DNA from: Tubulanus polymorphus
Taxonomy: Eukaryota > Animalia > Nemertea
NCBI RefSeq assembly: GCF_964204645.1
Contig: NC_134027.1
Coordinates: 19,616,560-19,680,559 of the forward strand
Direction of reading: 5' to 3'
DNA length: 64,000 nucleotides
Positions 6,949 through 64,000 of the stretch are shown here, piece after piece. Under the pieces are notes generated by a model. It did not search any database. It was not told the DNA's origin and saw only the letters and a program-made list of their open reading frames with translations. The position numbers and the translations under genes were made by a program. How positions within the stretch are numbered: the first letter of the stretch is position 1; every line of letters begins with the position of its first letter.

Positions 6949-6995
6949 GGGTATTCCCACCCAGCCGTCCCCCAGGCGATTGAGGGATTATTGGC

Positions 6996-7112
6996 GCAAA
7001 AAGATGATGGCGTCTCGCCAGATGGCGCTATGTTACGGCGCCCCTACCAAAAGTCGATTCGGGCGTTATCTGCCTAGCCAAAAGCAATATGGCTATAGTG
7101 TATTTTCCCAGG
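6996..7112 (-). repeat. DIRS right inverted terminal repeat
   Basis: Reverse complement of 1135-1251. Confidence 0.92.
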
Positions 7113-7347
7113 TAAGTATTCCTCGTAAATACCAATTTTTGAAAAAAATTGTAATTTTTGCCCGAATTCTGAGTCCTGTAGCTTCCTACTGGTTTACCAT
7201 TTCTCATTGCAATTTGTGATGGGTATTCTTTGGAAAGGGATGTTTTATACCTCAGACAGGTATTTTTCATCAGCCAATTATGACGCAATTGGCGGCCATC
7301 TTGGTGTTGACAGTACTCATTCGTAAGTGGGAAAAAGTTTTTCCACA

Positions 7348-9652: not shown

Positions 9653-10170
9653 GTGATAATTTGGGAGTTTTCGTGGTAAATCCTCTAGTAGCGCGTACCC
9701 AGCAGCGAACCATGTCTAGCACGGCGTGGATGTTACCGAGCACTAAATTCTGGAAGAAGGATGAAATTCTCGTTTTCACGCCGCATAGAAATTACACCGT
9801 ACACGACTACGAACAATTCTTCACAGATTTGAATTTCAAGACTGGCTGGGAAATGAGAAAAGACACGATGAATCTTATACATGATCTGACGCCACCTGGT
9901 GTCGAAGTTCACTGTATTCACGGCAACGGATTAAAAACCCCGGGCCAATTCCGTTATACAACAGGAATGTGGCCTGATAAACAGCCATACATGATTCCAG
10001 ATGACGGAGACGGTACTGTGAATATGAGAAGTTTGCTGGGTTGTTTACTATGGCGCGGAAAACAAAAATATCCTGTGTATCATCAAGTATTCCCAAATGC
10101 CGAACATATGAAAATGTTGAAAGTTCCAGCTATTATAGCTTATATCAAAAAAGTTTTGACCGGTTTATGA
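9653..10170 (+). CDS. PLA2G15: Last coding exon of lysosomal phospholipase A2 / LCAT-family gene
   Basis: TCCTTTTTGTAG acceptor (AG 9651-9652). Translation has PPGVEVHCIHG, DGDGTV (catalytic Asp) and AEH (catalytic His); stop TGA 10168-10170. Intron 405-9652 is in compatible phase. Confidence 0.9.
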
Positions 10171-46363: not shown

Positions 46364-46569
46364 GGTTGCCGCGCTTCAATTTCTTCTATTCAATTACGAA
46401 TCAACTTTTGCTCATTGCAATGGGATCACCGGGATATGCCATGGCGGGCCGGCCCGGGCGCTCTAAAGAACACGAGTAGGCCGGTGGTTGATTTAAAGAA
46501 TCCTACACCACTACAAGTCCAAGAGCTTTTATCGAACGAACTCTAGATATGCGGTAACTACAAAGATAA

Positions 46570-46690
46570 GGCGTGGTGCTGTTGCATTCACTATCAGTGC
46601 TGGGACGTGGGTTCGAGTCCTGGCTGCTTACAGTGTGCGGGCAACATTTCAATGGCCGTCCCGTCGTGAGGTTAAAAATAGATAATCCAA
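46570..46690 (+). mobile_element. tRNA-derived SINE-like fragment (mirror copy about 49215-49335)
   Basis: Pol III B-box GGTTCGAGTCC (46610-46620) with a degenerate upstream A-box; no full cloverleaf. Confidence 0.45.
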
Positions 46691-49541
46691 TAGGGTTAGT
46701 CTTAAGGCTGGCTTATGTCGACCAGCAACGCGACGTCTACCGACTCCTACCGACGCAACTGAGAGCAACCGCGATCGCAGCCCAGCTTATGTCGACTGCG
46801 CTCCGATTCGCAGCAACTGAGGCCGACTAGTGGGATATGAGATCCTCCCAGTTGCTTCCCTGCTTATGTCGGTTGCGATTACTAGCAACTGCAACCGGCT
46901 CAAATGGTCACGTGATAAGCACTTTGAGAATAAATTTTAATAAATTTTAGGAAATATATTTCTATTAGAAAAGCTATTTCTTTAAGACTTTGATCTTTCT
47001 GATTCTGTTTTGAATACAACGTGCTAGCGACATCTATAAAGATGGCCACTCACACCATAATTCTACCAATTTTGTTTCTAGATCTTCGGTCCAGTCCTCT
47101 GCCGTGCTGAAGGTTTGGTTCCGTCGCGTCGCAGATGAGCTTATGTCGGCTGCGATCGAAAGCAACTGCCCGCCTACCGTAGGCTGGAGAAGAACCACAG
47201 GGGCTTGTAAACTGGATTGGATTTTACTTCCGGGTTGTTGACAATCTCGCGAGAATGGCGCTAAATTTAAACTGCAAATAGATTCAAAATATCACAGAAA
47301 TACCTTGTGTTGATGTTATTTATTTATCCACTATAGAGTTCCGATAAACAATTGGCTGTTAAGGATCAGTATCAGCGGGTGCGACGCTTTACTATGGCGC
47401 TTATACGAAATTGAATCTGATTCGGTTTAGCTAAATCGAAATCCGATTCGATGTCGGAAACCGAAAGGATTAGTAAATCGAATTGTTTTTCGTAAATGAG
47501 TCGAATCGATTGATCAATTCAAAGGTCGCGATTCGAAAGAAAATGGGCGTCAATGGTGACCGAATTATTGATAGACGACGATTTTCGATTAATGTCTCTA
47601 GCCCGCGGTCGAAGAGTACGCCATGTTGGATTTAGCTGACTATATAAATCGCCACTAACTTGCTCGCCGAGCAAGTTAGTCGATTTAATGAATCAATTTG
47701 CTAAACCGTTTCCATAAACGCTTTGATTTACAAAATCGGCTTCACTAAACCGTGTGCCGTAAAACACAGGGGTTTGGCGATGGGCTTGGATTTTATTTCC
47801 GGGTTGTTGATAATCTCGCGAGAATGGCGCTAAATATGAACTGCGAATAAATTTAAAATATCACGGAAATACCTTGTGTTTATATTGTTTATTTATCCGC
47901 TATAAAGTTTCGATAAACAATTGGTCGTATTGTTATTTTATATAGTAGCGTGACGACCGTCTGATAATGATTCTTAACGACCAATTGTTTATCGAAACTT
48001 TATAGCGGATAAATAAACAATATAAACACAAGGTATTTCCGTGATATTTTAAATTTATTCGCAGTTCATATTTAGCGCCATTCTCGCGAGATTATCAACA
48101 ACCCGGAAATAAAATCCAAGCCCATCGCCAAACCCCTGTGTTTTACGGCACACGGTTTAGTGAAGCCGATTTTGTAAATCAAAGCGTTTATGGAAACGGT
48201 TTAGCAAATTGATTCATTAAATCGACTAACTTGCTTGGCGAGCAAGTTAGTGGCGATTTATATAGTCAGCTAAATCCAACATGGCGTACTCTTCGACCGC
48301 GGGCTAGAGACATTAATCGAAAATCGTCGTCTATCAATAATTCGGTCACCATTGACGCCCATTTTCTTTCGAATCGCGACCTTTGAATTGATCAATCGAT
48401 TCGACTCATTTACGAAAAACAATTCGATTTACTAATCCTTTCGGTTTCCGACATCGAATCGGATTTCGATTTAGCTAAACCGAATCAGATTCAATTTCGT
48501 ATAAGCGCCATAGTAAAGCGTCGCACCCGCTGATACTGATCCTTAACAGCCAATTGTTTATCGGAACTCTATAGTGGATAAATAAATAACATCAACACAA
48601 GGTATTTCTGTGATATTTTGAATCTATTTGCAGTTTAAATTTAGCGCCATTCTCGCGAGATTGTCAACAACCCGGAAGTAAAATCCAATCCAGTTTACAA
48701 GCCCCTGTGGTTCTTCTCCAGCCTACGGTAGGCGGGCAGTTGCTTTCGATCGCAGCCGACATAAGCTCATCTGCGACGCGACGGAACCAAACCTTCAGCA
48801 CGGCAGAGGACTGGACCGAAGATCTAGAAACAAAATTGGTAGAATTATGGTGTGAGTGGCCATCTTTATAGATGTCGCTAGCACGTTGTATTCAAAACAG
48901 AATCAGAAAGATCAAAGTCTTAAAGAAATAGCTTTTCTAATAGAAATATATTTCCTAAAATTTATTAAAATTTATTCTCAAAGTGCTTATCACGTGACCA
49001 TTTGAGCCGGTTGCAGTTGCTAGTAATCGCAACCGACATAAGCAGGGAAGCAACTGGGAGGATCTCATATCCCACTAGTCGGCCTCAGTTGCTGCGAATC
49101 GGAGCGCAGTCGACATAAGCTGGGCTGCGATCGCGGTTGCTCTCAGTTGCGTCGGTAGGAGTCGGTAGACGTCGCGTTGCTGGTCGACATAAGCCAGCCT
49201 TAAGACTAACCCTATTGGATTATCTATTTTTAACCTCACGACGGGACGGCCATTGAAATGTTGCCCGCACACTGTAAGCAGCCAGGACTCGAACCCACGT
49301 CCCAGCACTGATAGTGAATGCAACAGCACCACGCCTTATCTTTGTAGTTACCGCATATCTAGAGTTCGTTCGATAAAAGCTCTTGGACTTGTAGTGGTGT
49401 AGGATTCTTTAAATCAACCACCGGCCTACTCGTGTTCTTTAGAGCGCCCGGGCCGGCCCGCCATGGCATATCCCGGTGATTCCATTGCAATGAGCAAAAG
49501 TTGATTCGTAATTGAATAGAAGAAATTGAAGCGCGGCAACC

Positions 49542-52500
49542 GATTACGATTAAGATTACGATTCATTTACACTCCAAACATTTCCATGGTATATAGAGGA
49601 AAACTATTACACATGTATATACAAATATTTACAAAACAACACTGAAGTGATTAAAATTTAGAGAATGAAAACGAAACAAAATATATATACATCAATTATT
49701 TACAATACTATATATATACTATTGGAGGGATCTATATACATCGTCTTAATGAATTTGGCTAAGTTGACCGTTGGTTTTTTCAGAATATCAAGGGTATTAA
49801 AGGTAATCAAATTCAAATAGTTTTTGCGGGGTTCGTTAAGGAAGGTACAGTCAAACAGAAAATGGGATTCGTCACCTAAAGTATTACAAGTGGGGCATAT
49901 TCTATCGGCTCTGTCTAAATGAAGGTTTGAAAATTTGTTCACAGGTAAAATATAGGACCCGACCCTAAATTCAAATAAACTAGTTCCTAAGTCATCACCA
50001 AGTTCTATCCTATACTTCTCTAACCTAATATCATTTCTATATTGCCTAAAGTTAGTGTATATCGGATTAGTATTTATGGCAGATACGGTTTCTTGAAGGT
50101 GCTGGCACGGAGTATCTGTTTTATTCGTTTTGAAAAAGATTTAGTGTTAGTCATGAATTGCTGCGTCCAAATAAAGGACAAACCAGTCATCAAAGGTTTT
50201 CTTTATATATGATAACCAAGGGCTCTTAAATTTATCCCTTAGAAAGAAAGAAAGAAAGAAATTGAAAAATATTTTATTAAGTATTGAATTACGTTTGGTT
50301 TGCTTTCCAGATACTGTTTTAACCCAAAAGTTAATCATCCTGCGTCTAACATCTATATTCAAAGGATAATGCCCTAGCTCTGATAAAACTTGTAAGTTGT
50401 GAGAATATTTCGTCACTTTCATTAAGATTTTACAGAAGAAGCACTGAATATTTTCTAATAAATCAAGATTTTCGTATCCCCAGATCTCACACCCATACAT
50501 GGCTATTGGAGCAACACACATATCAAATAATTTAAACATAACATCTATGGGCAATTTCAAACGTCTGCCTTTTTGAACGATAGAAAACATAGCTCTCATA
50601 GCTTTATCGTAAAGATACTTTTTTGCCTTAGCAAAGTTACCATTCCAATTAAATTTTACTCCGAGATAAACATAATCTTCAACTAATTCTAACTCTTGAT
50701 CACCAAACATAAATTTCGAAATCGTTTTTATCCGGGATTTACTTCACGCAAATACAAGTACTTTAGTTTTCTCTGGGTTAACAGTGAGACCATTAGCGGC
50801 ACAATATTCAAATAGGGTATCTAAGTGTAGCTGAAGAGATTTCTCATCCTCAGCAAGAATAACTGTACCATCCGCGTATTGTATTATGAATAAATTCAGT
50901 AAAGTATCAATATCCTGGTCACGATTAAAATTTAGTTTTTCAATAAATGATAAAGTCGGTTTTCCACGATCCATGAAAAATTCTTCAATGTCGTTTAAAA
51001 ATAACGAAAAGAGGATAGGCGAGAGATTTTCGCCTTGTCCTAAGCCTCTATCAGCTGCAAAGTATTGTGACGTGCAACCATTAAATTTAACACATGATTT
51101 TATGGAATTATACATATTTTTGACCACATTGGAAAAGTTTAAATTAACACTGTAAGCAATTAATTTTCGCCATAACGTTACCCTACAAATCGAGTCGAAA
51201 GCTTTCTTAAAATCAAAAAAGGCGCAAAAATGTGACAAAGATACAGCTCTACGATTGTTTTTAGCGTGTAAATATGATCAATGGTGGAATATTTCGATCT
51301 AAAGCCAGCCTGGGCTTCACTTATAATGTCATTCGTATCTAGGAATGTTGACAATCTTTGATTTAGGATACTTGTAAATAACTTACCAAGACAGCTAACT
51401 AAGGTAATACCTCTATAATTATCGGGATTAGAGGGATCGCCATTCTTTTTGAAAATGGGTTTGATGACGCCTATAGACCACATCTCTGGAACATCCTGTT
51501 TAAAGAACTAAATTGAATAATTTTTGTAATATATCAACTAAAAACTGGTACTGAGTAACTCCCAACAGCTCATTCGTTTTTTGGGTTATTGATTTCGCAT
51601 TCTCTCAATTCCTTAATAAATTCATCTTTTTGTTTTTTCTTATTTTCTCGTATGACCTTTTTATAATTTTTAGATGAGTTCTTAAAGGATTCAAAATTGG
51701 AAGGGGTAGGGCAAGCCCTATATCTTTTTTTCATATAATTATATTTCTTCTGTGCATCTCTACAGTCCCTGTCAAACCATCTGTTGCGAACCGGTTTTTT
51801 GCAGTTATTACTTTTCCTACTTTGTCTATGGTACATGAAATTACACTCATCAGCACTTGATAATAAAGAAGATACAAATCAATCAGTAAGTCCATTAATG
51901 TTACCTGGCGATTGATTTCCTAGATCCGGCAACCCATCCAAAAGTAACTTATCTAAATCATTATCTCGTAATTTTGATTCTTCATTCAGGAAAAATTGAT
52001 TTGATCTAGTACTGTCCCACCTAATGGAAGTGTCAAAGTTCGCGTGTTCATTACCCCTTTTATTATCGCTTGCAATGGTGTCCCTAGAGTTCGAATACAC
52101 GTACAGATTAATAGAATTATGTCCATCAGATAATAATGGGTCAAAAGGCATTATTTCAAAGTCCTGAACATAACCAAACAGTTCTAAATCACACACAAAA
52201 TAATCGATGACACCAGTGTTCCTAGTATAATTACCTGTCTGATCATTGCCACATCTGCCATTGAGAATAATTAGTGAATGGTTCTTACACAAATCTATTG
52301 GCTGATAGCCTGTGTTATTCGTTCTTTTGTCCTGATTATTTCTAGTAGTGGGAACGCCTAAATTAATCAACGAATCAAAAATATGGTCTACGTGATCATC
52401 TTGAATTATCTGATTATCAGGTTCCAAAAAGTCTGGCATACAAGCGGTGTGAGCATTAAAGTCACCAGAAATTAACACATTGAAATCATACTCAACTTTC

Positions 52501-52567
52501 AATTGTAATAACTCTATTTCAATTTCACTGATAGCTATTTCTGAATAATAGTAATTAGAAGATGGCG
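49542..52567 (-). mobile_element. Same LINE, right copy, extending about 245 bp further 5'
   Basis: Mirror of the left copy plus the endonuclease motif SGDFNAH. Confidence 0.9.
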
Positions 52568-52596
52568 TTTTCATACCAGAGGTCGAGAGGTCGAGA

Positions 52597-52860
52597 CACC
52601 ACTCATCACGGCTAGGCTCTAGTGAGAACGGACGATTGCTCTGTGATACACATATACAGTGAGTGCGCGTAACAACAACTGCGCGTGGATAGATAGATAC
52701 AGTGAGTCGCTACTGAGAACGGTTATTAACGAGTGTGCTATTACTGTAGTACAGTGATTGCGTGTCAACTGTGCCCGGATAAATAGATGCTGTGAGGCTT
52801 GGGTGAGAACGGTTAATAGCGCGCTTGTTATATACAAGGGGAAGTAATCCCCACTCATCA
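52597..52860. repeat. Putative terminal region (TIR) of the Polinton-like element with ~45/90-bp degenerate tandem repeats
   Basis: GAGAACGG recurs at 52624, 52715 and 52805 and (CA/CT)GTGA(G/T) roughly every 45 bp; GC content is higher than in the element body. Confidence 0.55.
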
Positions 52861-52886
52861 CCACAAGTAATTTGTTTTCCTTATAA

Positions 52887-53186
52887 ATGGGAGATAGAAA
52901 AGCATTCTTAGCAACAATAAATAACAGAATAAAACCAGCAAAAAAACAATTTGAAATAAAAAAGTTAGTTGATGTTACAAAAGAAATTGAACATAAAATA
53001 TTGAAATTAGAAAAGATAAAAACTAAATATGGAGAGAAAGTATCAGCTAATTTAAGCTACTGCAATGTTAGTACATCGCGAGAATTTAAAGTATTTTTAC
53101 CTGATAAATGGGTTTCATTGAGTACAGAGGAATTAAAAGATTTAGAAGGAATTAAAATAATCTATCATGGAAAAAATGAAGAATGA
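52887..53186 (+). CDS. Small Polinton-like virus protein, possibly OB-fold ssDNA-binding
   Basis: 99-aa ORF with a TAAATG start; the TKYG...V...L...VFLP pattern recalls small Maverick proteins. The fold is inferred. Confidence 0.55.
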   Translation: MGDRKAFLATINNRIKPAKKQFEIKKLVDVTKEIEHKILKLEKIKTKYGEKVSANLSYCNVSTSREFKVFLPDKWVSLSTEELKDLEGIKIIYHGKNEE

Positions 53187-53299
53187 TTTAGAAATTGTTG
53201 ATTAAATTAAAAAAAATAAATTAATAAAAATAATGAATATCTAGAATCCGAAATGACTTATCTGGACAATTTAATTGCTCCGCATAGATAGACAAAAGT

Positions 53300-53708
53300 A
53301 GTGAGATATTCAATTAATTGAAAAAAATTATTTTTTTGCTTTTTTCTAAAATATTAATCCATTTTTTTTATTATCAATTTTGGAATTTCAGAAGTATTTT
53401 CATTTTTTATAGCAGTTGTTTCAGAATTATTAATATCGTGAATTTTATTTGATTTCTTATACCAATTACACCCAATCAAAATGAATACAATTACAAATCC
53501 AACTGTAAAATATAGACATTTATCAAATATTCTATCATTAGAAGGAGTAGAAATAACACTATTTTCACCATTTTTATTAACATTTTTATTACTTATTTTT
53601 TCTTTTACAGCTTTTTAATATTCTTGTGATTTAATTCCTAATTGCCGAAACCATTCAATTTGTTTCTGTTGATCTCGGTTTTTTCTTCACTTCTTCCACC
53701 TTGTTCAT
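53300..53708 (-). pseudogene. Viral single-pass membrane protein, frameshifted
   Basis: TAAATG start at 53708 (MNKVEEVKKKPRS), a frameshift, then QKQIEWFRQLG... and a hydrophobic segment LYFTVGFVIVFILIG. The 3' end is approximate. Confidence 0.5.
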
Positions 53709-54246
53709 TTATTGTAGCAAGATTTTTACTTTCAATATTTGAAAATGTTATAACTCCAGTAGATAATAGTGTCATAAATCCACCTAATTGAAACGATAAA
53801 TATCGAATCCACCTATTTAATTCAGTCATAACTAAATAATCATTTTTTAAATCGGAATATAATCTTTTTTCATCTTGAATTGGCAGCATATAATCACATA
53901 ATTTACTATAACTTTTTACTACATTTTCTGATATCGCGTCATTAATTCTAGCTATTCTCGCAGTTTCATGAATCTTAAATAATCTAATAATTTCATCTGA
54001 TTTCATTGTATCTAATTCATTATAAGTTAAATTTTTACTGATAAAATTTTTACATTTTCCAGATGCTATTAATATTTCTAATTGATGTTTACAATAAAGA
54101 TAATATTCATAATTATTATTTGTTGTAACATTATTTAAAGCACCATCATCTGGAGTTAATTTTGTTTCTGTTATTCCTAAATCATCTAAAGTTTTTTCAA
54201 TTGGAACATCACCATTTTTAGATTTTATTTTCTTTTCACCTCCCAT
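53638..54246 (-). CDS. Hypothetical viral protein (202 aa)
   Basis: Intact ORF with a TAAATG start and a hydrophobic segment near the C-terminus. Confidence 0.7.
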   Translation of the reverse strand: MGGEKKIKSKNGDVPIEKTLDDLGITETKLTPDDGALNNVTTNNNYEYYLYCKHQLEILIASGKCKNFISKNLTYNELDTMKSDEIIRLFKIHETARIARINDAISENVVKSYSKLCDYMLPIQDEKRLYSDLKNDYLVMTELNRWIRYLSFQLGGFMTLLSTGVITFSNIESKNLATINEQGGRSEEKTEINRNKLNGFGN

Positions 54247-54278
54247 TTATATAACAAAAAAATTAGTTGTGATGTTGC

Positions 54279-54550
54279 AACTAGAATTTAACTAGAATGT
54301 AACTAAAAATCAACTAGATTAACAAGCTTGTTGAAATATTGTTGTTTTTATTTATTTCTTGTTGAATCTAGTTGATTTTTGTTTTAAATACCAATAACTA
54401 GAATTCAACTAGAATGTAACTAAAAATATACTAGATTAACAAGCTAGTTAAAATATTGTTGTTTTTATTTATTTTTTTGTTCCAACTACCAATAACTAGA
54501 ATTCAACTAGAATGTAACTAAATATGTAATAGATTAACAAGCTAGTTGAA
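54279..54550. repeat. Intergenic repeat array built from AACTAG units, 3 copies
   Basis: AACTAGAATT(T/C)AACTAGAATGTAACTAAA...TAGATTAACAAGCT at 54279, 54396 and 54494. Confidence 0.85.
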
Positions 54551-54551
54551 T

Positions 54552-55115
54552 TTAAATAAATTCATATTTAAATGGGTGTTGTAATCTAAATAGTAATTTT
54601 GATCTTTTAATATTTTTCAACTTATCCATATATTCATTATGTAAATCATGTGGAATAATATCATTTTCCTCAAGTGCATTTTTCATCGATTTTCTATCTT
54701 TTTTGTAGAATAAAACTAGAAATCTAATGTTTTCTCTAAAGACTTTAACAATTGAATTATATTTTTGATTTAAAACCCATGTTGTTATCCCAAAATGTCT
54801 CCCAGAGAAAGCCAGATAACATAACTAATGTATTTGATCCTTTATAAATATCTATTGCTATTTCAATACAATTATCTAAATTTTCTTTTACTGTTTTAGG
54901 ATCTAATATAATAGATTCATTATTTCTAGTAATATTTCTGTCATAAGTTTGATTAAATTCATATGTTGGACAAAATAATACTATATTATCAAAATAGTTT
55001 TTATAAAAAACAGTTTCTAATAAATTTAATATAAAATAAAATAAGTTTTTCCACAATTTGTTACACCAGAAATTAACATATTATGAGGCTCAAATATAAA
55101 TAATTCCTTATTCAT
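54552..55115 (-). pseudogene. A32/FtsK-HerA-family genome packaging ATPase, disrupted
   Basis: Start at 55115 gives MNKELFIFEPHNMLISGVTNCGKT (Walker A). A frameshift leads into ...IVLFCPT..., the Walker B region is missing, and a third frame gives FSGRHFGITTWVLNQKY (GRH arginine-finger motif). Confidence 0.85.
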
Positions 55116-56240
55116 TTATATATTTGTAATTTTACTTGATAATATCCATTCATTGAATTTATCTGGCCATCCAACCCATTTTACGAAAGAATATTTTTTT
55201 GTTTTAATAGTTTTTGTTTTTAATACTTTTTCAATTTTATATTCTCGTCCTAGATTTTCAGTAGTTAAACTTAATTCTTCTTCATAAAAGTAGCCATCAA
55301 CTTCTTCACCATCTAAATCTTCTAATTTATAGACATATGGTTTTGTTGTTATTACCTTTTTTATTTTATATATTTCCCTAGTAAAATTTCGATCGTATCC
55401 TTTGTCAAATATCTTTTTATACTTAGAAATTCTAACATTTTGACCAACTTTAAATTTAGGTTCACCAAAATCATCTACAAGAAATGCTCCATATAAATTA
55501 TTCCAAACAATTTCAGCATTTTCAGGTTTTCTAGCATTAATAGGTTTCATTCCAATAGAAGAATGATAAGAATTATTATATCCTTCTATCAATTTTGGTA
55601 AAACATCAATCCATTTAAAAGTATTATTTGCTGTAAAATATTTCCACATTCTTGTTCTTAATGTTCTATTAAATCGTTCAACAACTGCTGCTATTTTATC
55701 CGATTTTGTTGAAAAATATTTAATATTATGATTATCTAAGAGTTCATGAACAAGTGAATTATCAAATTCTTTTCCATAATCAAATTGTATTTTTTCTGGT
55801 TTTATTTTATCATCCGAAAGAAATTTTCGTAAAACATTTGATGTTTGTACAGCATCTTTTCTATAAAGTGGGAAGCTCCATACATAACGACTAAAAATAT
55901 CAATTATATTCAATAACCACCAATAATCATCATTATCTTTCTTAACATTTTTCATATCAATTAAATCTCCTTGCCACTGTTGATCTACATAACTTACCAT
56001 AGTTTTACGAGTTTTATATTTTCTAACAATTTTTTTATGTGTTGTGTATGTTGGTTGTTCTAACATAAATTCATTTATATCTTTATATTTAACTAAATTT
56101 TGTGGGATTATCTTATCTAATTTATCTTGTTTTACTTGACGCCATATATTTTTAGTGGAAGAATAAGCAACCGAACTCTCAGGGTTGTAATATAAATTTC
56201 TTAAATATTGTTCTTTAGTATTAGGAGTTTTTTTTACCAT
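55116..56240 (-). CDS. Polinton-type retroviral-like (rve) integrase with C-terminal chromodomain
   Basis: DDE residues in WQGDLID, IQFDYGKEF and VVERFNRTL; YNNSYHSSIGMKP; chromodomain YKIEKVL...VKWVGWPDKFNEWI. Confidence 0.93.
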   Translation of the reverse strand: MVKKTPNTKEQYLRNLYYNPESSVAYSSTKNIWRQVKQDKLDKIIPQNLVKYKDINEFMLEQPTYTTHKKIVRKYKTRKTMVSYVDQQWQGDLIDMKNVKKDNDDYWWLLNIIDIFSRYVWSFPLYRKDAVQTSNVLRKFLSDDKIKPEKIQFDYGKEFDNSLVHELLDNHNIKYFSTKSDKIAAVVERFNRTLRTRMWKYFTANNTFKWIDVLPKLIEGYNNSYHSSIGMKPINARKPENAEIVWNNLYGAFLVDDFGEPKFKVGQNVRISKYKKIFDKGYDRNFTREIYKIKKVITTKPYVYKLEDLDGEEVDGYFYEEELSLTTENLGREYKIEKVLKTKTIKTKKYSFVKWVGWPDKFNEWILSSKITNI

Positions 56241-56274
56241 CCATTTATATATCCTTAATTTTAACTTTATATTT

Positions 56275-57522
56275 CTAATATTGAATACTATCTAATTGTG
56301 AATTTACAATATTTAATTGTGCGTCAGATATAATATAAATGCGCATTTTAAAATTTAAGCTTCCTTTTTTCTTTTTCATGAATAATTGTATTCCATCTTT
56401 AGTGTTCTGTAGTTTTTTCCCAGAACCATGTAATGAATTATCCTCTGTTGTTCTAAAATCTAACCATAATGCATATTTATTGCCGGTATAATAATCAATT
56501 TGATTAATATTACAATTTTCAGATGATTTTACTTTTTCATTCATAAAGTGTTTTCTAATTTCAGGCCATTGATCAATCATTCTCATTCCTTGACAAAATA
56601 TTTTATTTGCTATTCCTTCGATAGTTATTTCTACTTTTGTTATTTCAGGATTATAATAATTATCAACATTTATTGCACCATTAGTATATGTTGCAATGGT
56701 AAAAAATATTAATATACCTTTAATAGATCTTCTTGGGAAGTTAATATTCTCATTAATTATTTCATCATTTGCATTAATAGTTACAGTTTTAAATTTATCA
56801 ATATAATCATATAATAATGAAAATCCTTGATTGTATTGAGTTTGAATTGTGCTAGCAATATTTTCATTAGTTACTGTGTTATATTCTAAACATATATTCG
56901 ATAATTTATAACCCATATCTTTAACAACGCTAGATAATACAATTTCATTTACAGGAGCAAATGTTATCTCAAATATAATATCTTCTTGAATTACATATTT
57001 ATATAAAGGTGCGTTATTATTTATCAATTCAAAGTCTAATGGAATTTTATATTTGCTTCCATAAATCTTTTTAATCAAATTATCTGTGGCACGAGTTACT
57101 ATTGCGTCATTAGCTCCTGATCTTAATTTATTATGGTTTTCCGATTGAATGCCTTGAAATATCATATTATTTCCATTTTCTTTAGTTAACCATAAATCTT
57201 TATAATGCATAAATAAATTATAATCATCTAATGAGAAAATTGTTTCTGGACCAATCTTTATAGTTAATTTTTTAATCAAATATCTCCCAACATTATCGAC
57301 AACATAATTATTATCATGACCAGTTACTTTTATATCAGCTGATAAATAAATACTATTTGGAACATAAAAAGTATTTTGTGTTAATCTAGGAATTCTAACA
57401 TATAAAGTTTCATCGGGATTAATATTTGAAGGATTATGTGTAATTATATGATGTGATCTTTCTGCTTTAATAGCATTAGATATTCTAGAAATCTTAGAAG
57501 GACTTATATAACTCCCACTCAT
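56275..57522 (-). CDS. Putative double jelly-roll major capsid protein
   Basis: Intact 415-aa beta-rich ORF next to the integrase and ATPase. Patterns NPS.I.P...LYVRIP, VDNVGRYLIKKLTIKIG, YNPEITKVEITIEG and YALWLDFRT resemble Polinton-like virus MCPs. Confidence 0.78.
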   Translation of the reverse strand: MSGSYISPSKISRISNAIKAERSHHIITHNPSNINPDETLYVRIPRLTQNTFYVPNSIYLSADIKVTGHDNNYVVDNVGRYLIKKLTIKIGPETIFSLDDYNLFMHYKDLWLTKENGNNMIFQGIQSENHNKLRSGANDAIVTRATDNLIKKIYGSKYKIPLDFELINNNAPLYKYVIQEDIIFEITFAPVNEIVLSSVVKDMGYKLSNICLEYNTVTNENIASTIQTQYNQGFSLLYDYIDKFKTVTINANDEIINENINFPRRSIKGILIFFTIATYTNGAINVDNYYNPEITKVEITIEGIANKIFCQGMRMIDQWPEIRKHFMNEKVKSSENCNINQIDYYTGNKYALWLDFRTTEDNSLHGSGKKLQNTKDGIQLFMKKKKGSLNFKMRIYIISDAQLNIVNSQLDSIQY

Positions 57523-57558
57523 TTATTTAACAAAAATTATCTATTTTTGATATCATGT

Positions 57559-59017
57559 TTACTTGATATTTTTTGATATCATATTTACTAACCCAAAAAT
57601 AATAGGACTTACAACTGTAATTAAAAATAAAATAATATGTTCAGCAGCAAAGTTAAGAATATTCCCAGCAGATTTCAATATAAAACCAACAATTGATACA
57701 ATAATTCCTGGTAAAGTTGCAGCAGATTTTTTAGATAGTTCCCATAAATATTTTGCTTATTTTTTCAAACCATCTTTAACTTTATCTTGTATAGAATTAT
57801 TATCATTCGGGGGTTTATCCGGTTTATTTGGAGTAGGAGTAGATTTTAAAGCATTTGATATTGCTAAACCAATTGTTGTAAATAACATAGTTACAGCTGT
57901 TAGAATTGAAAGAATTGTTAGTCCTTCTAATTTAAATAATAACTTTATTCTATCTTTCAATGATATTTCAGAATTTGGTTTTATCAACAAATCTTTAAAA
58001 ATAACTTTTAATCTATTTATATTATAATCATATGATTTTAACAATAATTTAATTTCTTCTTTTTGTAATTCTATGTTATATTCTAAATCATCTTTTTCTT
58101 TTTCTAAACGTAATTCTTTTTTCCTATATTCTATTTCATCAATTACTTGATGATCTAAATCAGACTTTAATTGTTCTATTTCTTTATTTTTTATCAGTTA
58201 ATTCTTATTCTAAAGTTCTAATCTTATTCTTATTCTAAAGTTTAAAATCTCTTATACTTTTATCATGCGCAATTTTATCAGATGCAAGCCTTATACTTTT
58301 AATTTCTCTAATTGCTTCAACAGAAAATATATTATTTAAATCTTCTAATTGTTGATCTGTTGCATCAATTAATCCATTCGGTAAAAGTTTTTCAATTGGA
58401 ACTTTATTTGATTTAAGTTTACTAGTTTTGGAAGTTATATTCTGTTCAGAAGTTGTTTCTGTTTCTGATTTCTTTTTGATTATTTCAAATAATTCATTAA
58501 TTCTTATTTTAAATACGTCTATATTATCAGTTAATTCTTGTTTTATAACATCAGTTATTACGTTACTATTACTAATTCTTTTAATTCTATCTGGTTCTAA
58601 TTTTTCTAAAGTTGATTCTGATAATATTTTGTTTTCACGTTTATAAGTGATATCAATATAATAATCACCTTTCAAATGATAATACCATTTACCATTATCT
58701 AAAAATTTTAATGGATATGCTAAAGGTCCAACGTCTTCATCATTTATGTTAAGTTTAGAATTTTCAATTATACATTCTAATTTAGGTATTTTGTTTAAAT
58801 TATCTAAATCTTGTTTTACTTAATCTGGGTCTAAATTTTCCGGATTTAATTGTGATTCTGCATTTTTAATATAATCAGGGATATTTAAATTATTATTATA
58901 TTCTGGCTCATTACCATCATTAAAACTTGTTTCACTAAAATCAGGTTGTTGTTCATCAGTTATCCCAGGTTCATCTAAAGGATCCATTCCAATATCTTCT
59001 CCACCTTCTACATCCAT
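57559..59017 (-). pseudogene. Large viral coiled-coil protein with C-terminal membrane segments, fragmented
   Basis: TAAATG start at 59017; consecutive fragments (58820-59017, 58235-58675, 57757-58044) end in hydrophobic helices (LTILSILTAVTMLFTTIGLAI; LPGIIVSIVGFIL). Confidence 0.6.
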
Positions 59018-59033
59018 TTATATAATAAAAAAA

Positions 59034-60344
59034 TTAAAATTTAAAATATAATATTCCTCCTATAACAATTCCTATACAAGTTAAAGCTAATTTAGTATTT
59101 TCATGGAATTTATTATCATTAGCAGTTTTAATTATATCATGTTGAATATTATCAGTTTTTATATTTTCTGATGTATTGTAATCTTTTATTTTAGAATCAT
59201 TATGCAATTTAATATTTTTAGTTTTAGTTTCTGTTGATTGAATATGTTTTTTATTTTTTTCACCTTCCATTAATTTTGGAGCAGTAATAATCTTTTTATT
59301 TATATCATTTAATCCAATTGAATTATTTATTGTTGCAGTTTTAATTAGATTATTATAACCAATTATATTTCCCATCTTTAATACTAAATCATTAGAAATA
59401 ATAAATAGATTAGGGCCTATACAATAATTTAATCTAATATGTGATTTATCTAAATAATTTTGATATCTTACAATGTTTTCTGGAATCGATCTATTTTTAT
59501 CATTATGAATGGAATCTTCAAATAATACTTTAAATTGTTTCTGCGCATCAAATGAAGTACTATTATTTCCAACTATTGGTGATCTTGTTTCAACTTGCGC
59601 ACCTAAAATACATATCAAATAAGTTCTAATTGATTGATTTATTCTTTGTATACCAGGTTTTGTAAATCCTTCACTATAAGATTCAATAAAATTAATCCAT
59701 CCATTATTATTATCAATTCTATAATTATGATAAGCTCCAATTCTATGCATATAATCAATTCTTTTTATTTCATACTGTTCACCAACGCCATGTAATCTAC
59801 CATGCGCTCTAAAATCGGAATTAATATTTATATTAAATTCATTACATATTTCATAAAACTTAGATAGATTAAAATTATTATCAAATTCTTTAAAATATTT
59901 CGATCCAGGTAAAGGGCATTCTAATTCATTTAATATTATTCTGATTTGAAAATATGTGTGAAATCTAAATATTGTATGAATGAATTTTAAATCAGAATAT
60001 TTCAAATTTTTATCTAAGTTATTCAAGTGTTCATGCCAACTTACACCACAACCAGTTGTTGCACAATGAAAAGCAAAATTTAATTGATTCTGCCAATATT
60101 TCATATTAGATTTTACTTTATATATATTATATTCATCTCGAGTAAAAGTAACTTCATATGTATTAAATATATTTTCCATTTTAGAAATAAAATAGTTTGT
60201 TTCAGTAACATAAATTTCTAAATTAATCAATGAAGGTAAAACTAAATTTTTATATATTATCATGTTACTAAAATCTATTGCTGGAGTATTATATTTATAA
60301 TATTCATGTGATTTATTATATTGGAAAGCTTTTGGAAACCCCAT
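59034..60344 (-). CDS. Hypothetical viral protein (436 aa) with C-terminal membrane anchor
   Basis: Intact ORF with a TAAATG start; globular core WQNQLNFAFHCATTGCGVS; terminal hydrophobic helix LALTCIGIVIGGILYF. Confidence 0.8.
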   Translation of the reverse strand: MGFPKAFQYNKSHEYYKYNTPAIDFSNMIIYKNLVLPSLINLEIYVTETNYFISKMENIFNTYEVTFTRDEYNIYKVKSNMKYWQNQLNFAFHCATTGCGVSWHEHLNNLDKNLKYSDLKFIHTIFRFHTYFQIRIILNELECPLPGSKYFKEFDNNFNLSKFYEICNEFNININSDFRAHGRLHGVGEQYEIKRIDYMHRIGAYHNYRIDNNNGWINFIESYSEGFTKPGIQRINQSIRTYLICILGAQVETRSPIVGNNSTSFDAQKQFKVLFEDSIHNDKNRSIPENIVRYQNYLDKSHIRLNYCIGPNLFIISNDLVLKMGNIIGYNNLIKTATINNSIGLNDINKKIITAPKLMEGEKNKKHIQSTETKTKNIKLHNDSKIKDYNTSENIKTDNIQHDIIKTANDNKFHENTKLALTCIGIVIGGILYFKF

Positions 60345-60360
60345 TTATATAATAAGAAAA

Positions 60361-60795
60361 TTAATAATTAACTAATTCTTTTAATAATTTATCTTGTTCT
60401 TCAACTGTTATATGACCATTTAAACTTATTATATAATCTAGTGTATTCTTTAATTTATTAATTTCTTTTATATTAGTTTTAATTTTTTCTTTATTACTTT
60501 TTATATTTAATTTTGAACTTATACCAGTTAAAACACTTGAACTTAATCCTAATACACCAATTGATATAGCTAAAGGTGTTAATGGACTGAATATTGCTAG
60601 AAATGTTATTACAGAATTAATTGTAACCGAACCACTAATAATAAGATAATATATAATTTTACTTTTTAAATATTTTTTCTTTTTTATCTTTAAGTCACTT
60701 TCAAATTCTAATATTTGTTTTTCTAAATATATTTTTAATTTAGTTTTATTTATATCATAAGGAATAATATCAATACTATCAACTTTATCTTCCAT
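60361..60795 (-). CDS. Viral two-helix membrane protein (144 aa)
   Basis: Intact ORF with a TAAATG start; two hydrophobic segments flanked by coiled coil. Confidence 0.75.
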   Translation of the reverse strand: MEDKVDSIDIIPYDINKTKLKIYLEKQILEFESDLKIKKKKYLKSKIIYYLIISGSVTINSVITFLAIFSPLTPLAISIGVLGLSSSVLTGISSKLNIKSNKEKIKTNIKEINKLKNTLDYIISLNGHITVEEQDKLLKELVNY

Positions 60796-60814
60796 TTATT
60801 TAGAAAAAAAATTA

Positions 60815-61232
60815 CTAATTAGTAAATTTATATGCTACAAATATAACAATAACTGTTCCGCCTAAAATCCAAATTATTTCATATTTCTGTTGTTCTTTAC
60901 TTGGGGTATAATAATCTGATATTGTAGGTTTATGTAGATGTAATTTTTCTTGTTACTGCGTTATTTAAACTCATTGCATCATCAACTGATTGAAAATCTC
61001 TATGTGAAATCTTCTGATCATATAATTCCTTGTTAATATAATCCATATAGTTTTGTCTCTTTTCTCTGTATTCTTCTGCTGCTTTATTATATTTCTCTAA
61101 TGCTAAGTTATGTCTTTTTTGTTCTGTAAATGATCAATTTTTATCAATATGCTTAAATAAATAACCACCACCAGTAAATGCTAAAGCGTTTACAATTGCC
61201 GATCCTATAATAGTTATAACTGCAGAAGCCAT
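60815..61232 (-). pseudogene. Small viral membrane protein, frameshifted
   Basis: TAAATG start; MASAVITIIGSAIVNALAFTGGGYLF, then a frameshift to EQKRHNLALEKY... and a hydrophobic C-terminus. Confidence 0.6.
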
Positions 61233-61256
61233 TTATTTAGTAAAATAATTATGCAT

Positions 61257-61478
61257 TTATATAGGAGGAATATATTTTTGTTTTTCCAAATAATCAATAG
61301 TTAAATTAGATAAAGTAACTGCTAATGTTAATTTTAAAATATCATTTATATCAAATCTATCAACATTAACACTTCCCATTTTAAATACTTTTTTTAATAC
61401 CAATGAATAACCAACAGTTCCAACTGAAAGTAATGCTCCATTATATAATCCAGTTATTATCCACTTATTATCACTCCT
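61257..61478 (-). pseudogene. Small viral hydrophobic protein (73 aa) with start codon mutated to AGG
   Basis: 74 codons including the stop, beginning in a TAAAGG context where TAAATG is expected; reads SDNKWIITGLYNGALLSVGTVGYSLVL...YIPPI*. Confidence 0.55.
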
Positions 61479-61481
61479 TTA

Positions 61482-61835
61482 TTAATCAAAAAAATTACTA
61501 TCTTCAAAATATTTAGTTATCTTATTTATGATAAATTCAACATTTATTTCATTACTAGTTTCATTTGTATGTATTTCAATTATTATTTTTTTAATATCAT
61601 CGATGATAAAATCTTCATCTAATTCATAAAATCTTAATGACTCTCTAATTAAATTAGTAATCTTTTCTACATTGAAAGTGTCTTTATCTATTGTTTTTTC
61701 ATACTTAAATGTTGTTTCATTAGAAAATGCAATATTTTTGATTTGGGTAATTACATCATTAATGTTAAATTTCATTTCTTTCTCACGTTTAAAATCAAAT
61801 CTCAAACATATACTCGGTCCAACAGTTATATTCAT
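61482..61835 (-). CDS. Hypothetical viral protein (117 aa)
   Basis: Intact ORF with a TAAATG start. Confidence 0.65.
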   Translation of the reverse strand: MNITVGPSICLRFDFKREKEMKFNINDVITQIKNIAFSNETTFKYEKTIDKDTFNVEKITNLIRESLRFYELDEDFIIDDIKKIIIEIHTNETSNEINVEFIINKITKYFEDSNFFD

Positions 61836-61851
61836 TTATATAATGAAAAAA

Positions 61852-62636
61852 TTACTCTTTACATCTTATAACTAATTCATAAATTACGGGAAAGTTATTC
61901 AAATCAATTAAATATCCATTATGATTTCTAATTTCTAATCTAAAATTATTAAAATGCGGAATACAAGGTTTAAAATCACATTCAGCTAAATTATAATTTA
62001 TTTGCGTTCCAAATTGTTGAACGTTCTTCAATGGTAAAATATTTAATATACTAGAATTATAAATTGTATCTTTAGTTGCTTCAAATGTTTTTGTAGGATT
62101 AATTAAATTGCAATAAATATAAAAATGTGTGTAAGGTATTAAGTTTGATCTACCATATGTGTTATCGACAATAAGTTTATCTGGAGGAATTCCTAACAGT
62201 TTAGCAAAAGGTTTTTTAACACGTAAGCATGTCTTCTTGTAAATGAAGCAGGATTCATATTTTCATCATCAAACTTTACTTTAATTTTATTAGAGCTCTC
62301 ACTTTTTATGAATTTAATATTAAATTTAGAATCACTACCTAATATAATCCGAGCTTTTCTATTAATTTCTTGAGATAATGTTTCTAAATTATATAATCCT
62401 GGTGTTAGATAAAATTGATTCCATTCATGTTTAATTTTATCAAAAATAAAAAGGCTTCTATGTTCATCAGTTTTATCTGATATATTATAAAAAGAGTTAC
62501 ATAAACTTATATTAACTAATTTCAAATCAACACAATTCTTAAATTCTCTATCTAATTGAACTAGTAAATAATGTGATTTATAATTTGTAAGTCTTCTAGA
62601 ATCAACATATATTCTGTATTCTTTTAATTCACCCAT
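61852..62636 (-). pseudogene. Putative minor capsid (penton, single jelly-roll) protein, frameshifted
   Basis: N-terminal IYVDS...LDREFKN...NSFYNI...PGLYN; downstream frames give FYIYCNLI and IDLNNFPVIYEL, patterns typical of Polinton/PLV pentons. Confidence 0.68.
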
Positions 62637-62693
62637 TATTTATAACACAAAAAAACTACTCTCATCACCACTAGTAATTTTTTTCCCTAATAA

Positions 62694-63119
62694 ATGGATG
62701 AGAAGATACCATGCGAAATTTGTGGTGAACTTCTAAGAAAAAGTAATATGGCTCGACATATGAAAAAACATGATGAAAATTATAAACCCCCTAAAATAAA
62801 CTGCCCAAAATGTAATAAATTATTCTCAAGAAATTATGTTAAAAAACATTCAGAGAAGTGTAAAATAAATGGCGCAACGGCTAATGTTGATTGTAACGAA
62901 AGTAATAGTAATTCTGTTGAAGTTGAACCTGAAATTATTTGGAAAAGACCTTTCTTAAACTATGATAAGGATAATATAAAAGATCATTTCCGTGAGCCTT
63001 GTCGAATAAAATATAGCCCTGAAAATATAGAAGATTGGGAGAATCATCAATTTCGTAAAATACATATAGATAAAATTTCTAATAAATTTGAAACTGAATT
63101 CAATGAAAGAAAAAATTAA
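62694..63119 (+). CDS. Viral C2H2 zinc-finger protein, probably frameshifted and continuing to about 63300
   Basis: CEICGELLRKSNMARHMKKH and CPKCNKLFSRNYVKKH; a further CKYC...H...KH finger lies in another frame at about 63220-63290; TAAATG start. Confidence 0.7.
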   Translation: MDEKIPCEICGELLRKSNMARHMKKHDENYKPPKINCPKCNKLFSRNYVKKHSEKCKINGATANVDCNESNSNSVEVEPEIIWKRPFLNYDKDNIKDHFREPCRIKYSPENIEDWENHQFRKIHIDKISNKFETEFNERKN

Positions 63120-64000
63120 ATATTAGAAAAAATAAAATATGAGAAAACGTTACCAGATAATAAAGAAACAGTTGAAAAGTTAGAAAAACAATATAATGAA
63201 TTAACAAGAAAAACATATTATTGTAAATATTGTAAATTGATTATTACAACAAGTAATTCAAATCTACATAATAGAACAATAAAACATAAGAAAACGTAAG
63301 AAAATACCAGGAGCTTAATGAAGATCTATTACCAATAAATTATAAACAAAAATGCCCACAATGTAATTATGCGACCTTAAGACAAGAAGGTACTGTGTTA
63401 TTTTGTAATGAATGTGGATGGCAAAAGAATTTATGGGGTGATGAAAAAACTAGAAATATTCTTATAGATCCAAAATTAAATTATCTAGATTTTTAAGGTA
63501 TTTTCTACGGAAGATCATACACCAGAATATATGCAATGGCTTGAAAAAATGAAAATAATAGAAAATAAAAATGGTGAATAACTAAAAAAGATATTTTAAA
63601 AACAATTATTCCATCAACATTTAACACAAAACAAAAGAAAATGTATTTATATTTATTATTTAATGATTATTATGAAAAACCTAAATCAACAGAAGAAGAT
63701 ATGGAAAATATAAAAAAAACATTCAAACAAATATTAATGTATCATTTGGAAAATAAAATAACAGATTCAATTAATTATGAATTCTTTTTAAATACGATTG
63801 TAAATTATTTAAACATCGATATTATAATTCCATTTGACGAATTAACAAACAAAAAGAAACAAAGAGAGCGAGATGAAATGTGGAATAATATAGAACTTTA
63901 TCTAAATGAGAAAAATGAAATGGAAGAGCCTAAACAAATTATACAAGAACAATTAAATGAAAAAGAAGAAACCAATAGTGATTTCGAGTTTGATGATATT

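What the first reader, a model, noticed from the sequence alone, without database searches (positions are those of the whole stretch)
52860..62700. Endogenous Polinton-like virus whose genes start in a poxvirus late-promoter context (T-run + TAAATG)
Seen in sequence: the start codon is embedded in TAAATG at 52887(+), 53708, 54246, 55115, 56244, 57522, 59017, 60344, 60795, 61232, 61835 (all minus) and 62694(+). A variant TAAATAATG sits at 62636 and a mutated TAAAGG at 61478. Most have a T-run a few bases upstream (e.g. TTTTTTTTCTAAATAAATGG at 60795, TTTTTTCATTATATAAATGA at 61835). Established: poxvirus late promoters consist of a T/A-run, a short spacer and TAAAT(G), and virophages such as mavirus share late promoters with their giant-virus host. 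Inference: this element is an integrating satellite or hyperparasite transcribed by the machinery of a pox-like cytoplasmic virus infecting this animal lineage, and it may act as an inducible antiviral provirus.
Basis: partly seen in the sequence, partly recalled or inferred. Interest (0 to 1): 0.88.

Follow-up and report, generated by a model that had tools for sequence, protein, structure and literature searches.

The report
Animal Polinton with poxvirus-style late promoters
A broken virus-like transposon (Polinton) in an invertebrate genome starts nearly all its genes inside one signal that matches the poxvirus late promoter and carries a gene predicted to encode a poxvirus-type late transcription factor, so its family was likely transcribed by a co-infecting large DNA virus that has not yet been identified.

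Summary
Observation confirmed. All 12 listed TAAATG sites and both variants are present. TAAATG precedes 12 of 14 listed starts against 23 of 398 other ATGs (p=1.6e-12). A matrix trained only on three relatives ranks element starts as the top 12 of 127,902 window positions. The signal is bipartite: TAAWW, T-run, about 6 nt, TAAATG, matching published vaccinia late-promoter geometry. It is not stop-start coupling (2 of 39). Close relatives share it; distant relatives lack that register.

New: the right-hand gene (62694 onward, broken) is VLTF3-like by language-model and fold search, though Pfam misses it.

Caveats: no helper virus or RNA was found. An uncultured iridovirus-related giant virus also starts 11 of 17 genes at TAAATG, so 'pox' is not specific. 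The element's own VLTF3-like factor with host Pol II is a serious rival (0.3). This copy has 7 of 14 genes disrupted, so it cannot itself be an inducible defence.

Ten literature searches found no report of this promoter in Polintons; the scan's earlier notes hold none for this DNA. Verdict: new variant of a known kind.

The parts
52550..52609 (+). Left terminus of the element, beginning 5'-AGTAAT; inserted into a LINE-type retrotransposon
   Evidence: contigs match inward from about 52550 with unrelated flanks (13, 4 and 6 contigs in X1-X3, agreement 0.46-0.63); LINE contigs continue with other letters past 52550. That Polinton ends begin AG/AGTAGT is recalled.
52610..52851 (.). About 242-bp GC-richer secondary insertion flanked by a 10-bp direct repeat (52600-52609, 52852-52861); absent from other copies
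   Evidence: D9, D20; joints 52608/52609 to 52851; loose ends at 52609
52865..53186 (+). TAAATG promoter and intact 99-aa gene of unknown function
   Evidence: 73% identical to L003:125-466
53357..53708 (-). Frameshifted gene (130-aa homolog in L003); its TAAATG lies inside the 3' end of the upstream ORF
53638..54246 (-). 202-aa conserved gene of unknown function, TAAATG start; homolog also in distant L007
54279..54575 (.). Three imperfect repeats about 100-117 bp apart, non-coding
   Evidence: D4
54555..55115 (-). A32-like packaging ATPase, broken into three pieces; the TAA of its TAAATG is also the integrase stop
   Evidence: 64-89% identity to the L003 ATPase; L003 protein hits Pox_A32 at E 4.6e-11
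55116..56244 (-). rve integrase with C-terminal chromodomain (ORF from 56240); the TAAATG ATG at 56244 is out of frame with it
   Evidence: rve E 1.9e-10, Chromo E 0.002
56275..57522 (-). Intact double jelly-roll major capsid protein, 415 aa, TAAATG start
   Evidence: AF2 pLDDT 88.6; Foldseek hits are NCLDV, PBCV-1 and SGIV capsids; 921 homologs
57559..59017 (-). Broken coiled-coil protein with hydrophobic C-terminus (485-aa homolog in L003), TAAATG start
59034..60344 (-). Intact 436-aa protein with a hydrophobic C-terminal tail, unknown function, conserved in distant L005 and L006
60361..60795 (-). Intact 144-aa SLATT-like two-helix membrane protein (below family cut-offs)
60821..61232 (-). 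Broken small protein with hydrophobic N-terminus (139-aa homolog in L003), TAAATG start
61257..61478 (-). Small membrane-protein gene (75-aa homolog, 89% identity) that lacks its start codon; promoter core retained
   Evidence: rank 11 in the promoter scan
61482..61835 (-). Intact 117-aa gene of unknown function, TAAATG start
61852..62636 (-). Frameshifted gene, likely the minor capsid protein (penton); variant start TAAATAATG
   Evidence: the L003 homolog's Atlas model matches DUF5901 and NCLDV/Preplasmiviricota clusters, TM 0.73-0.82. Penton identity is inferred.
62637..62693 (.). 57-bp divergent intergenic region holding two back-to-back promoter cores
62694..64000 (+). Broken multi-zinc-finger gene with a predicted VLTF3-like (poxvirus A2L-like) domain at about 63290-63916; TAAATG start; runs off the window
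   Evidence: Intact homolog P0235, 39-53% identity; Atlas 27 of 30 hits Pox_VLTF3 at 0.93; Foldseek on homolog P0236, top hit cowpox VLTF3, E 7.6e-5; no Pfam hit

Best explanation
This is a broken copy of an AT-rich Polinton-type provirus in an animal genome whose genes nearly all start inside one fixed-spacing signal (TAAWW, T-run, about 6 nt, TAAATG), and intact members were likely transcribed by the RNA polymerase of a co-infecting large DNA virus, aided by their own predicted VLTF3-like late factor. Shown: the gene set, the motif and its spacing, conservation across four elements with 71-77% capsid identity, and the degradation of this copy. Inferred: the motif is a promoter with initiation inside the AAA; slippage would add a 5' poly(A) leader, which would replace the unfavourable T at -3. 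Inferred: the element encodes no RNA polymerase in the part seen, so it would borrow one in a virus factory, as mavirus does. The VLTF3-like protein would steer or compete for the helper's late machinery. The best-matching helper is a poxvirus (about half of this explanation's weight); an iridovirus-related virus is the main alternative. No helper was identified.
For: Motif statistics. In 42 starts from W, L001, L003 and L004: -3 T 39, -2 A 41, -1 A 41, -4 A 39; T at -14/-13/-12 in 33/31/35; A at -18 in 37; +4 purine in 41. Spacer from T-run to TAAAT is 5-9 nt in 26 of 29, mode 6. PMC5294985 gives 5-7 bp for vaccinia late promoters, and PMC11980589 gives a conserved T 10 nt before TAAAT, which is position -13 here. 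The upstream core alone separates start from non-start TAAATG (12 vs 23 sites, p=1e-6). Divergent ATGs lie only 57, 72 and 19 bp apart, leaving little room for Pol II promoters with leaders. Sense-strand AATAAA is not purged from ORFs: 25 vs 22.4 expected (W), 54 vs 54.0 (L003), 24 vs 25.5 (L004), 16 vs 19.6 (L001). Variable accessory genes (dNK, HNH-like) carry the motif too. The VLTF3-like gene itself has the same promoter (rank 5), so it cannot simply start the cascade. Precedent: mavirus and Sputnik use helper late promoters, integrated PLVs are reactivated by giant viruses, and PLVs occur in entomopoxvirus occlusion bodies.
Against: No helper sequence was linked to the host or the element. 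IMG/VR scans with MCP, MCP alignment, ATPase, VLTF3-like and sister-clade MCP found no relative. The dNK's nearest viral locus is a 49% GC giant virus without the motif. VLTF3 occurs in mriyaviruses that lack RNA polymerase and are thought to be nuclear (PMC11253617), so VLTF3 does not imply a helper. TAAATG starts also occur in a Pimascovirales-like giant virus (11 of 17, p=2e-12). Splice-donor-like hexamers are below expectation in L003 (10 vs 16.6, P=0.007; 1 of 30 tests, not repeated in the other elements), a weak hint of nuclear processing. Coral polintovirus genes are expressed in ordinary host samples (PMC11131425). The 42 starts include orthologues and are not independent. The VLTF3 call rests on a low-confidence model (pLDDT 56.8) and on homologs, with no Pfam hit.
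Confidence: 0.55

Rival explanations
1. Autonomous nuclear virus: the element's own VLTF3-like factor recruits host RNA polymerase II to the TAAATG promoters, so no helper is needed. The promoter and the factor would have been acquired together from an NCLDV ancestor.
For: The element carries a VLTF3-like gene, probably also in the sister clade (P0237 and MCP P0024 share a contig length of 12,994; inferred). Mriyaviruses keep VLTF2/3 without RNA polymerase. The element integrates in the nucleus, where a cytoplasmic poxvirus polymerase would have poor access.
Against: The VLTF3-like gene has the same late-type promoter as the rest. There is one sense AATAAA per about 190 nt of coding DNA in L003, with no purging. 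T at -3 with the start fused to the initiator needs a leader-adding step known for poxvirus polymerase (PMC5595341). No VLTF2 or TBP gene was seen in the visible part.
Confidence: 0.3
2. The motif is a post-transcriptional signal (translation context, stop-start coupling, or the poly(A) signal of the upstream gene), not a promoter.
For: About half of the sites contain AATAAA. Genes are tightly packed. Distant relative L006 has TAAA|ATG at 3 of 4 starts vs 0 of 133 other ATGs, which could be a Kozak-like AAAATG.
Against: TAA is the upstream stop in only 2 of 39 sites. Position -3 is T, against the purine rule (recalled). The motif also precedes terminal and divergent genes that have no upstream gene on the same strand (52887, 62694, L001 5548/5568). 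A fixed-register core 10-19 nt upstream is conserved. A TATA box abutting the ATG would place a Pol II start inside the ORF.
Confidence: 0.1
3. The motif is a by-product of extreme AT content or a functionless relic.
For: The element is 21-26% GC, and 24 of 36 TAAATG in it are not listed starts.
Against: p=1.6e-12 against ATGs of the same element. It is kept in four diverged elements and on accessory genes, and a matrix from relatives alone finds the window's starts as its top 12 hits.
Confidence: 0.03

Closest known systems
Maverick/Polinton (Polintoviricetes, 'adintoviruses') of animals
   Same: Integrated, multicopy, DJR MCP, A32 ATPase, rve integrase with chromodomain, likely penton, small membrane proteins. 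A VLTF3 homolog in a subgroup of polintoviruses is already reported (PMC11131425).
   Different: A uniform poxvirus-late-type promoter on nearly all genes and 20-25% GC. No protease or pPolB was seen in the visible 11.4 kb (element incomplete). The word 'promoter' does not occur in the adintovirus or coral polintovirus papers.
Entomopoxvirus-associated PLVs (AHEV_PLV1/2, CBEV_PLV1, Ca_PLV1; PMC11296320)
   Same: Small Polinton-like viruses proposed to parasitise poxviruses.
   Different: Those have a protease and either a tyrosine recombinase or no known integrase; this has rve. That paper has no occurrence of 'promoter', 'transcription' or 'VLTF' in its text, and none of 'promoter' or 'VLTF' in its supplement. 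Their capsids were not compared here.
Mavirus/EMALE provirophages, Gezel-14T and Tetraselmis PLVs
   Same: Integrated small DNA viruses whose promoters match a helper giant virus.
   Different: Protist hosts and mimivirus-family helpers, with other motifs (AAAATTGA, TCTA) and experimentally shown dependence. Here the host is an animal and no helper is known.
Poxvirus late promoter and VLTF3 (A2L)
   Same: T-run, 5-7 nt, TAAAT(G/A) overlapping the start codon; zinc ribbon plus helical late-factor domain.
   Different: Used here for essentially all genes with no early class visible. The factor is fused to extra zinc fingers and has diverged beyond Pfam detection.
Uncultured Pimascovirales-like giant virus G004 (L011, L017-L019, L021, L037-L040)
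   Same: TAA|ATG at 11 of 17 starts; encodes RNA polymerase and VLTF3.
   Different: Weaker T-run core (median core score -1.7 vs 5.7; T-run 4 of 11). Its VLTF3 shows no significant pairwise match to the element's. No evidence links it to this host.

Membership tests
Maverick/Polinton (Polintoviricetes) | Double jelly-roll major capsid protein | tested here: met
Maverick/Polinton (Polintoviricetes) | rve integrase | tested here: met
Maverick/Polinton (Polintoviricetes) | A32-like packaging ATPase | tested here: met
   Broken in the window; intact L003 homolog hits Pox_A32
Maverick/Polinton (Polintoviricetes) | Minor capsid protein | tested here: inconclusive
   L003 homolog matches DUF5901 and viral clusters by structure; jelly-roll fold not checked directly
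Maverick/Polinton (Polintoviricetes) | [quoted passage not shown] | not testable with these tools
   The element runs off the window and no genome is held. A polymerase-like fragment in distant L007 is recognised by eye only; no Pfam hit.
Maverick/Polinton (Polintoviricetes) | Adenovirus-type cysteine protease (uniform in group 1) | tested here: inconclusive
   None among window or L003 ORFs, but both are incomplete
Maverick/Polinton (Polintoviricetes) | Terminal inverted repeats and target-site duplication | tested here: inconclusive
   Left end at about 52550 with many different flanks; right end lies outside the window
Poxvirus late promoter | TAAAT(G/A) overlapping the start codon | tested here: met
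   39 of 42 starts
Poxvirus late promoter | T-rich core 5-7 nt upstream, conserved T 10 nt before TAAAT | tested here: met
   Spacer mode 6; T at -13 in 31 of 42; definitions
Poxvirus late promoter | [quoted passage not shown] | not testable with these tools
   No RNA holder listed
Poxvirus late promoter | Needs viral RNA polymerase and late factors | not testable with these tools
   Bench test needed
VLTF3 (Pox_VLTF3, PF04947) | Profile match to PF04947 | tested here: not met
   No hit at E up to 10 for P0235, P0236, P0237 or the window piece
VLTF3 (Pox_VLTF3, PF04947) | C4 zinc ribbon plus VLTF3-type helical domain by remote or structural similarity | tested here: met
   Atlas 27 of 30 hits at 0.93, 198-201 shared features; Foldseek 6 of the top 10 named VLTF3, low-confidence model
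Provirophage lifestyle (mavirus-like) | Promoter shared with an identified helper virus | tested here: inconclusive
   The motif matches poxviruses and partly G004; no helper tied to this host
Provirophage lifestyle (mavirus-like) | Reactivation by, and inhibition of, the helper | not testable with these tools
   This copy is broken
Entomopoxvirus-associated PLVs | Tyrosine recombinase or no known integrase, rather than rve | tested here: not met
   rve integrase present; their gene content
Entomopoxvirus-associated PLVs | MCP of the AHEV_PLV1/CBEV_PLV1 or AHEV_PLV2/Ca_PLV1 lineage | not tested

The most novel reading that the evidence does not exclude
A clade of animal Polintons are integrating virophages of an undiscovered poxvirus of aquatic invertebrates: every gene runs off the helper's late machinery, the element brings its own VLTF3 to capture that machinery, and its many genomic copies form an inducible antiviral reserve in an animal.
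Probability: 0.22. Interest if true: 0.92.

Novelty: new variant of a known kind. Interest (0 to 1): 0.72.

Why it matters
[quoted passage not shown] This clade gives a defined 22-nt promoter and a candidate cognate factor, so the question becomes a simple reporter and 5'-end experiment. Either outcome is informative. One is a provirophage in animals that predicts an unknown large DNA virus of invertebrates. The other is a small virus that drives host Pol II with a poxvirus-type late factor, which would help explain what VLTF3 does in viruses without their own polymerase.

Tried and rejected
No genome is held, so the right end, TIR pair and replication gene could not be read. No RNA holder was listed, and the one guessed-RNA run laid no contigs; neither bears on expression. 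IMG/VR scans with MCP, MCP alignment, ATPase, P0235 and sister-clade MCP P0016 gave no relative. The dNK led only to unrelated kinases at 28-38% identity beyond three close homologs. The extended-promoter scan gave 27 loci; 22 show no TAA|ATG enrichment and look like chance, and 5 belong to one giant-virus population. VLTF3 searches in the three contaminated MAGs behind L005-L007 were empty and uninformative. The PDB-wide structural search of the VLTF3-like model gave only generic helices, Z under 7. Rfam found nothing in 43000-64000. The MCP tree is the quick version with SH-aLRT only, 74 rows; hits under 340 aa, three duplicates of loci and most of the near-identical 427-aa group were left out. 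It contains no named reference, so group 1 vs group 2 was not assigned. PMC5499653, cited elsewhere for VLTF3 in Polintons, has no occurrence of the term. The Atlas could not be run on the 436-aa protein. L002 was dropped from the motif matrix as a near-duplicate of L001. Rejected: host TATA box (it abuts the ATG), stop-start coupling (2 of 39), poly(A) signal (TATAAA variants, terminal and divergent genes), chance.


Full report
SETTING. The window is animal DNA. It has an intron-split LCAT/PLA2G15 gene whose best named match is the bivalve Tegillarca at 59%, plus retrotransposons and microsatellites. The host group is not resolved beyond 'probably an invertebrate'. GC falls from about 36% to 21-26% at 53 kb and stays there to the window end. 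No whole genome is held.

OBSERVATION. TAAATG precedes 12 of 14 listed starts and 23 of 398 other ATGs in the element (p=1.6e-12). That list was not blind, so I also took the first ATG of every ORF of 100 aa or more: 6 of 9 in the window, 7 of 7 in L001, 3 of 3 in L002 (a near-duplicate of L001), 14 of 15 in L003 and 5 of 6 in L004, against backgrounds of 3-7%. The three distant relatives L005-L007 (33-38% capsid identity) score 0 of 12. A weight matrix trained on 28 starts of L001, L003 and L004 only ranks element starts at positions 1-12 and 15 of 127,902 window positions, including the gene that has lost its ATG; the likely penton variant ranks 61 or 128 depending on register.

SHAPE OF THE SIGNAL. 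Over 42 starts from four elements (orthologues included, so not independent) the counts are: A at -18 in 37; T at -14, -13, -12 in 33, 31, 35; A at -4 in 39; T at -3 in 39; A at -2 and -1 in 41; purine at +4 in 41. A T-run precedes 29 of 39 TAAATG starts but 17 of 64 other TAAATG, and the spacer is 5-9 nt in 26 of 29 with mode 6. Published vaccinia late promoters have a T-containing core 5-7 bp before TAAAT(G/A) (PMC5294985, passages and sections 6 and 9 read) and a conserved T ten bases before TAAAT (PMC11980589, passages), which is -13 here. Even the deep-branching salmon gill poxvirus keeps TAAATG at many conserved genes (PMC4542343, passages). The TAA is the upstream stop codon in only 2 of 39 sites. 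Divergent start codons lie 57 bp apart in the window, 72 in L003 and 19 in L001.

WHAT THE ELEMENT IS. It has a DJR capsid protein, an rve integrase with chromodomain, an A32 ATPase, a likely penton and several small membrane proteins, syntenic with L003 apart from inversion of the structural block. The left end lies near 52550, inside a LINE; contigs from the same organism label carry that end with many different flanks. From 2,382 to 11,238 contigs at 85-100% identity were laid on the region in three runs (two samples, one study, possibly the source), so it is a multicopy family. In a quick MCP tree the window groups with L001, L003, L004 and three further proteins (SH-aLRT 100), and this clade has the most AT-biased amino acids (FYMINK 0.41-0.46 vs 0.26-0.40). 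Seven of 14 genes in this copy are disrupted (ATPase, likely penton, VLTF3-like, the 485-, 139-, 130- and 75-aa homologs), and the integrase's TAAATG is out of frame. This copy is not viable on its own.

NEW COMPONENT. The rightward gene from 62694 is one broken long gene whose intact homolog P0235 (697 aa) has several zinc fingers, a C4 zinc ribbon and a helical domain. I first noticed the likeness to poxvirus A2L/VLTF3 by eye (recalled). Pfam does not detect it. The Atlas feature search on P0235 residues 325-530 returned Pox_VLTF3 clusters for 27 of 30 hits at 0.93. Foldseek on a low-confidence model of homolog P0236 (pLDDT 56.8) gave cowpox VLTF3 first (E 7.6e-5), 6 of the top 10 named VLTF3, and two entomopoxvirus late factors lower down. 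The E-values are too close to point to a poxvirus donor. A2L is a vaccinia late transcription factor. VLTF3 in some polintoviruses is already in print (PMC11131425, passages; PMC8502044, passages and section 10; preprint 10.64898/2026.06.19.733378, parts 1-3 of 5), but none of the passages I read links it to a promoter.

MECHANISM. The fixed register, the T at -3 and the very short divergent spacers point to initiation at the start codon itself. In vaccinia this gives a slippage-made poly(A) leader that forms the whole 5' UTR (PMC5595341, passages). Coding strands keep AATAAA at the rate expected from synonymous shuffles in all four elements, while distant L006 is mildly depleted (3 vs 6.7, P=0.04); this fits transcripts that avoid nuclear 3' processing, though the test has modest power. 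The VLTF3-like gene has the same promoter as the rest, so something else must start the cascade. I therefore favour a helper polymerase (0.55), by analogy with mavirus, Sputnik, Gezel-14T and Tetraselmis PLVs (preprints 10.1101/2022.07.28.501842 and 10.1101/2025.10.09.676808, passages).

AGAINST. Mriyaviruses keep VLTF3 with no polymerase and are thought to be nuclear (PMC11253617, passages), so an autonomous VLTF3-plus-Pol II model is live (0.3). How a cytoplasmic polymerase would reach a nuclear provirus is unexplained. Splice-donor-like hexamers are low in L003 only (1 of 30 tests). Distant L006 has its own start context, TAAA|ATG at 3 of 4 starts vs 0 of 133, so a TAAA initiator may be older than this clade and only the register is new. 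A scan of IMG/VR with the extended motif found no poxvirus but one giant-virus population (5 of 27 loci) with RNA polymerase and VLTF3. Its capsid N-terminus matches PDB 7yjl (recalled as a marseillevirus) and grouper iridovirus 6ojn. It starts 11 of 17 genes at TAA|ATG, and five related loci are also enriched, but its T-run core is weaker. TAAATG alone is therefore not poxvirus-specific; the full bipartite shape fits poxviruses better.

LITERATURE. Ten full-text searches listed no paper describing TAAATG or poxvirus-type promoters in Polintons. The closest, Barth et al. 2024 (PMC11296320; parts 1-3 of 8 read, plus term searches of text and supplement), proposes poxvirus hyperparasites from co-isolation but does not analyse promoters. 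Also seen as passages, without a bearing result: 10.64898/2026.10.13.758929, 10.1101/2024.03.23.586382, PMC12945077, PMC5499653. The library lacks most subscription journals, and bioRxiv supplements were closed, so a prior mention there cannot be excluded. The scan's earlier notes hold nothing for this DNA; one unchecked note describes a different Polinton with its own TBP.

VERDICT. The feature is real and stronger than first described: a clade-wide, poxvirus-late-type promoter on nearly all genes of an animal Polinton, with a predicted VLTF3-like factor. Helper dependence is likely but unproven, the helper's identity is open, and an antiviral role is untested. New variant of a known kind; interest 0.72.

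Noticed in passing
window 43572-52322: Nearly perfect inverted duplication with arms of about 4.4 kb around a 48-nt centre at about 47950, containing two copies of a LINE fragment; a real palindrome or an assembly fold-back.
   Followed up: no
window 52610-52851: Small GC-richer insertion with internal 90-bp repeats and a 10-bp flanking duplication inside the Polinton end; many other copies lack it.
   Followed up: partly
window 52854-52905 and 62661-62712: The terminal promoter region recurs internally, 79% identical over 52 nt, before the VLTF3-like gene (D12); the structural block between the two is inverted relative to L003.
   Followed up: partly
window 1590-6346: Retrotransposon with reverse transcriptase and RNase H, DIRS-like by eye, lying between exons of the host LCAT/PLA2G15 gene.
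   Followed up: no
L003:10343-10981; L001:5568-6080; L001:2461-3684; L004:2287-3117: Variable accessory genes (deoxynucleoside kinase, HNH-like, two unknown) all carry the TAAATG start; the two unknown ones have an A-rich rather than T-rich core.
   Followed up: partly
L011, L017-L019, L021, L036-L043, L045, L046 (G004 and relatives): An uncultured iridovirus/marseillevirus-related giant-virus group that starts many genes at TAA|ATG (11 of 17 in L039); not seen described in the papers read.
   Followed up: partly
P0044 cluster; L005-L007: Relatives of this capsid are deposited as 'Bartonella' hypothetical proteins on contigs under 1.7 kb and inside three prokaryote MAGs; probably co-assembled eukaryotic or viral DNA.
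   Followed up: no
window 54279-54575: Three imperfect non-coding repeats of about 100 bp between the ATPase and the 202-aa gene; L004 has a tandem repeat tract at the equivalent place. Possibly an origin or regulatory array.
   Followed up: no
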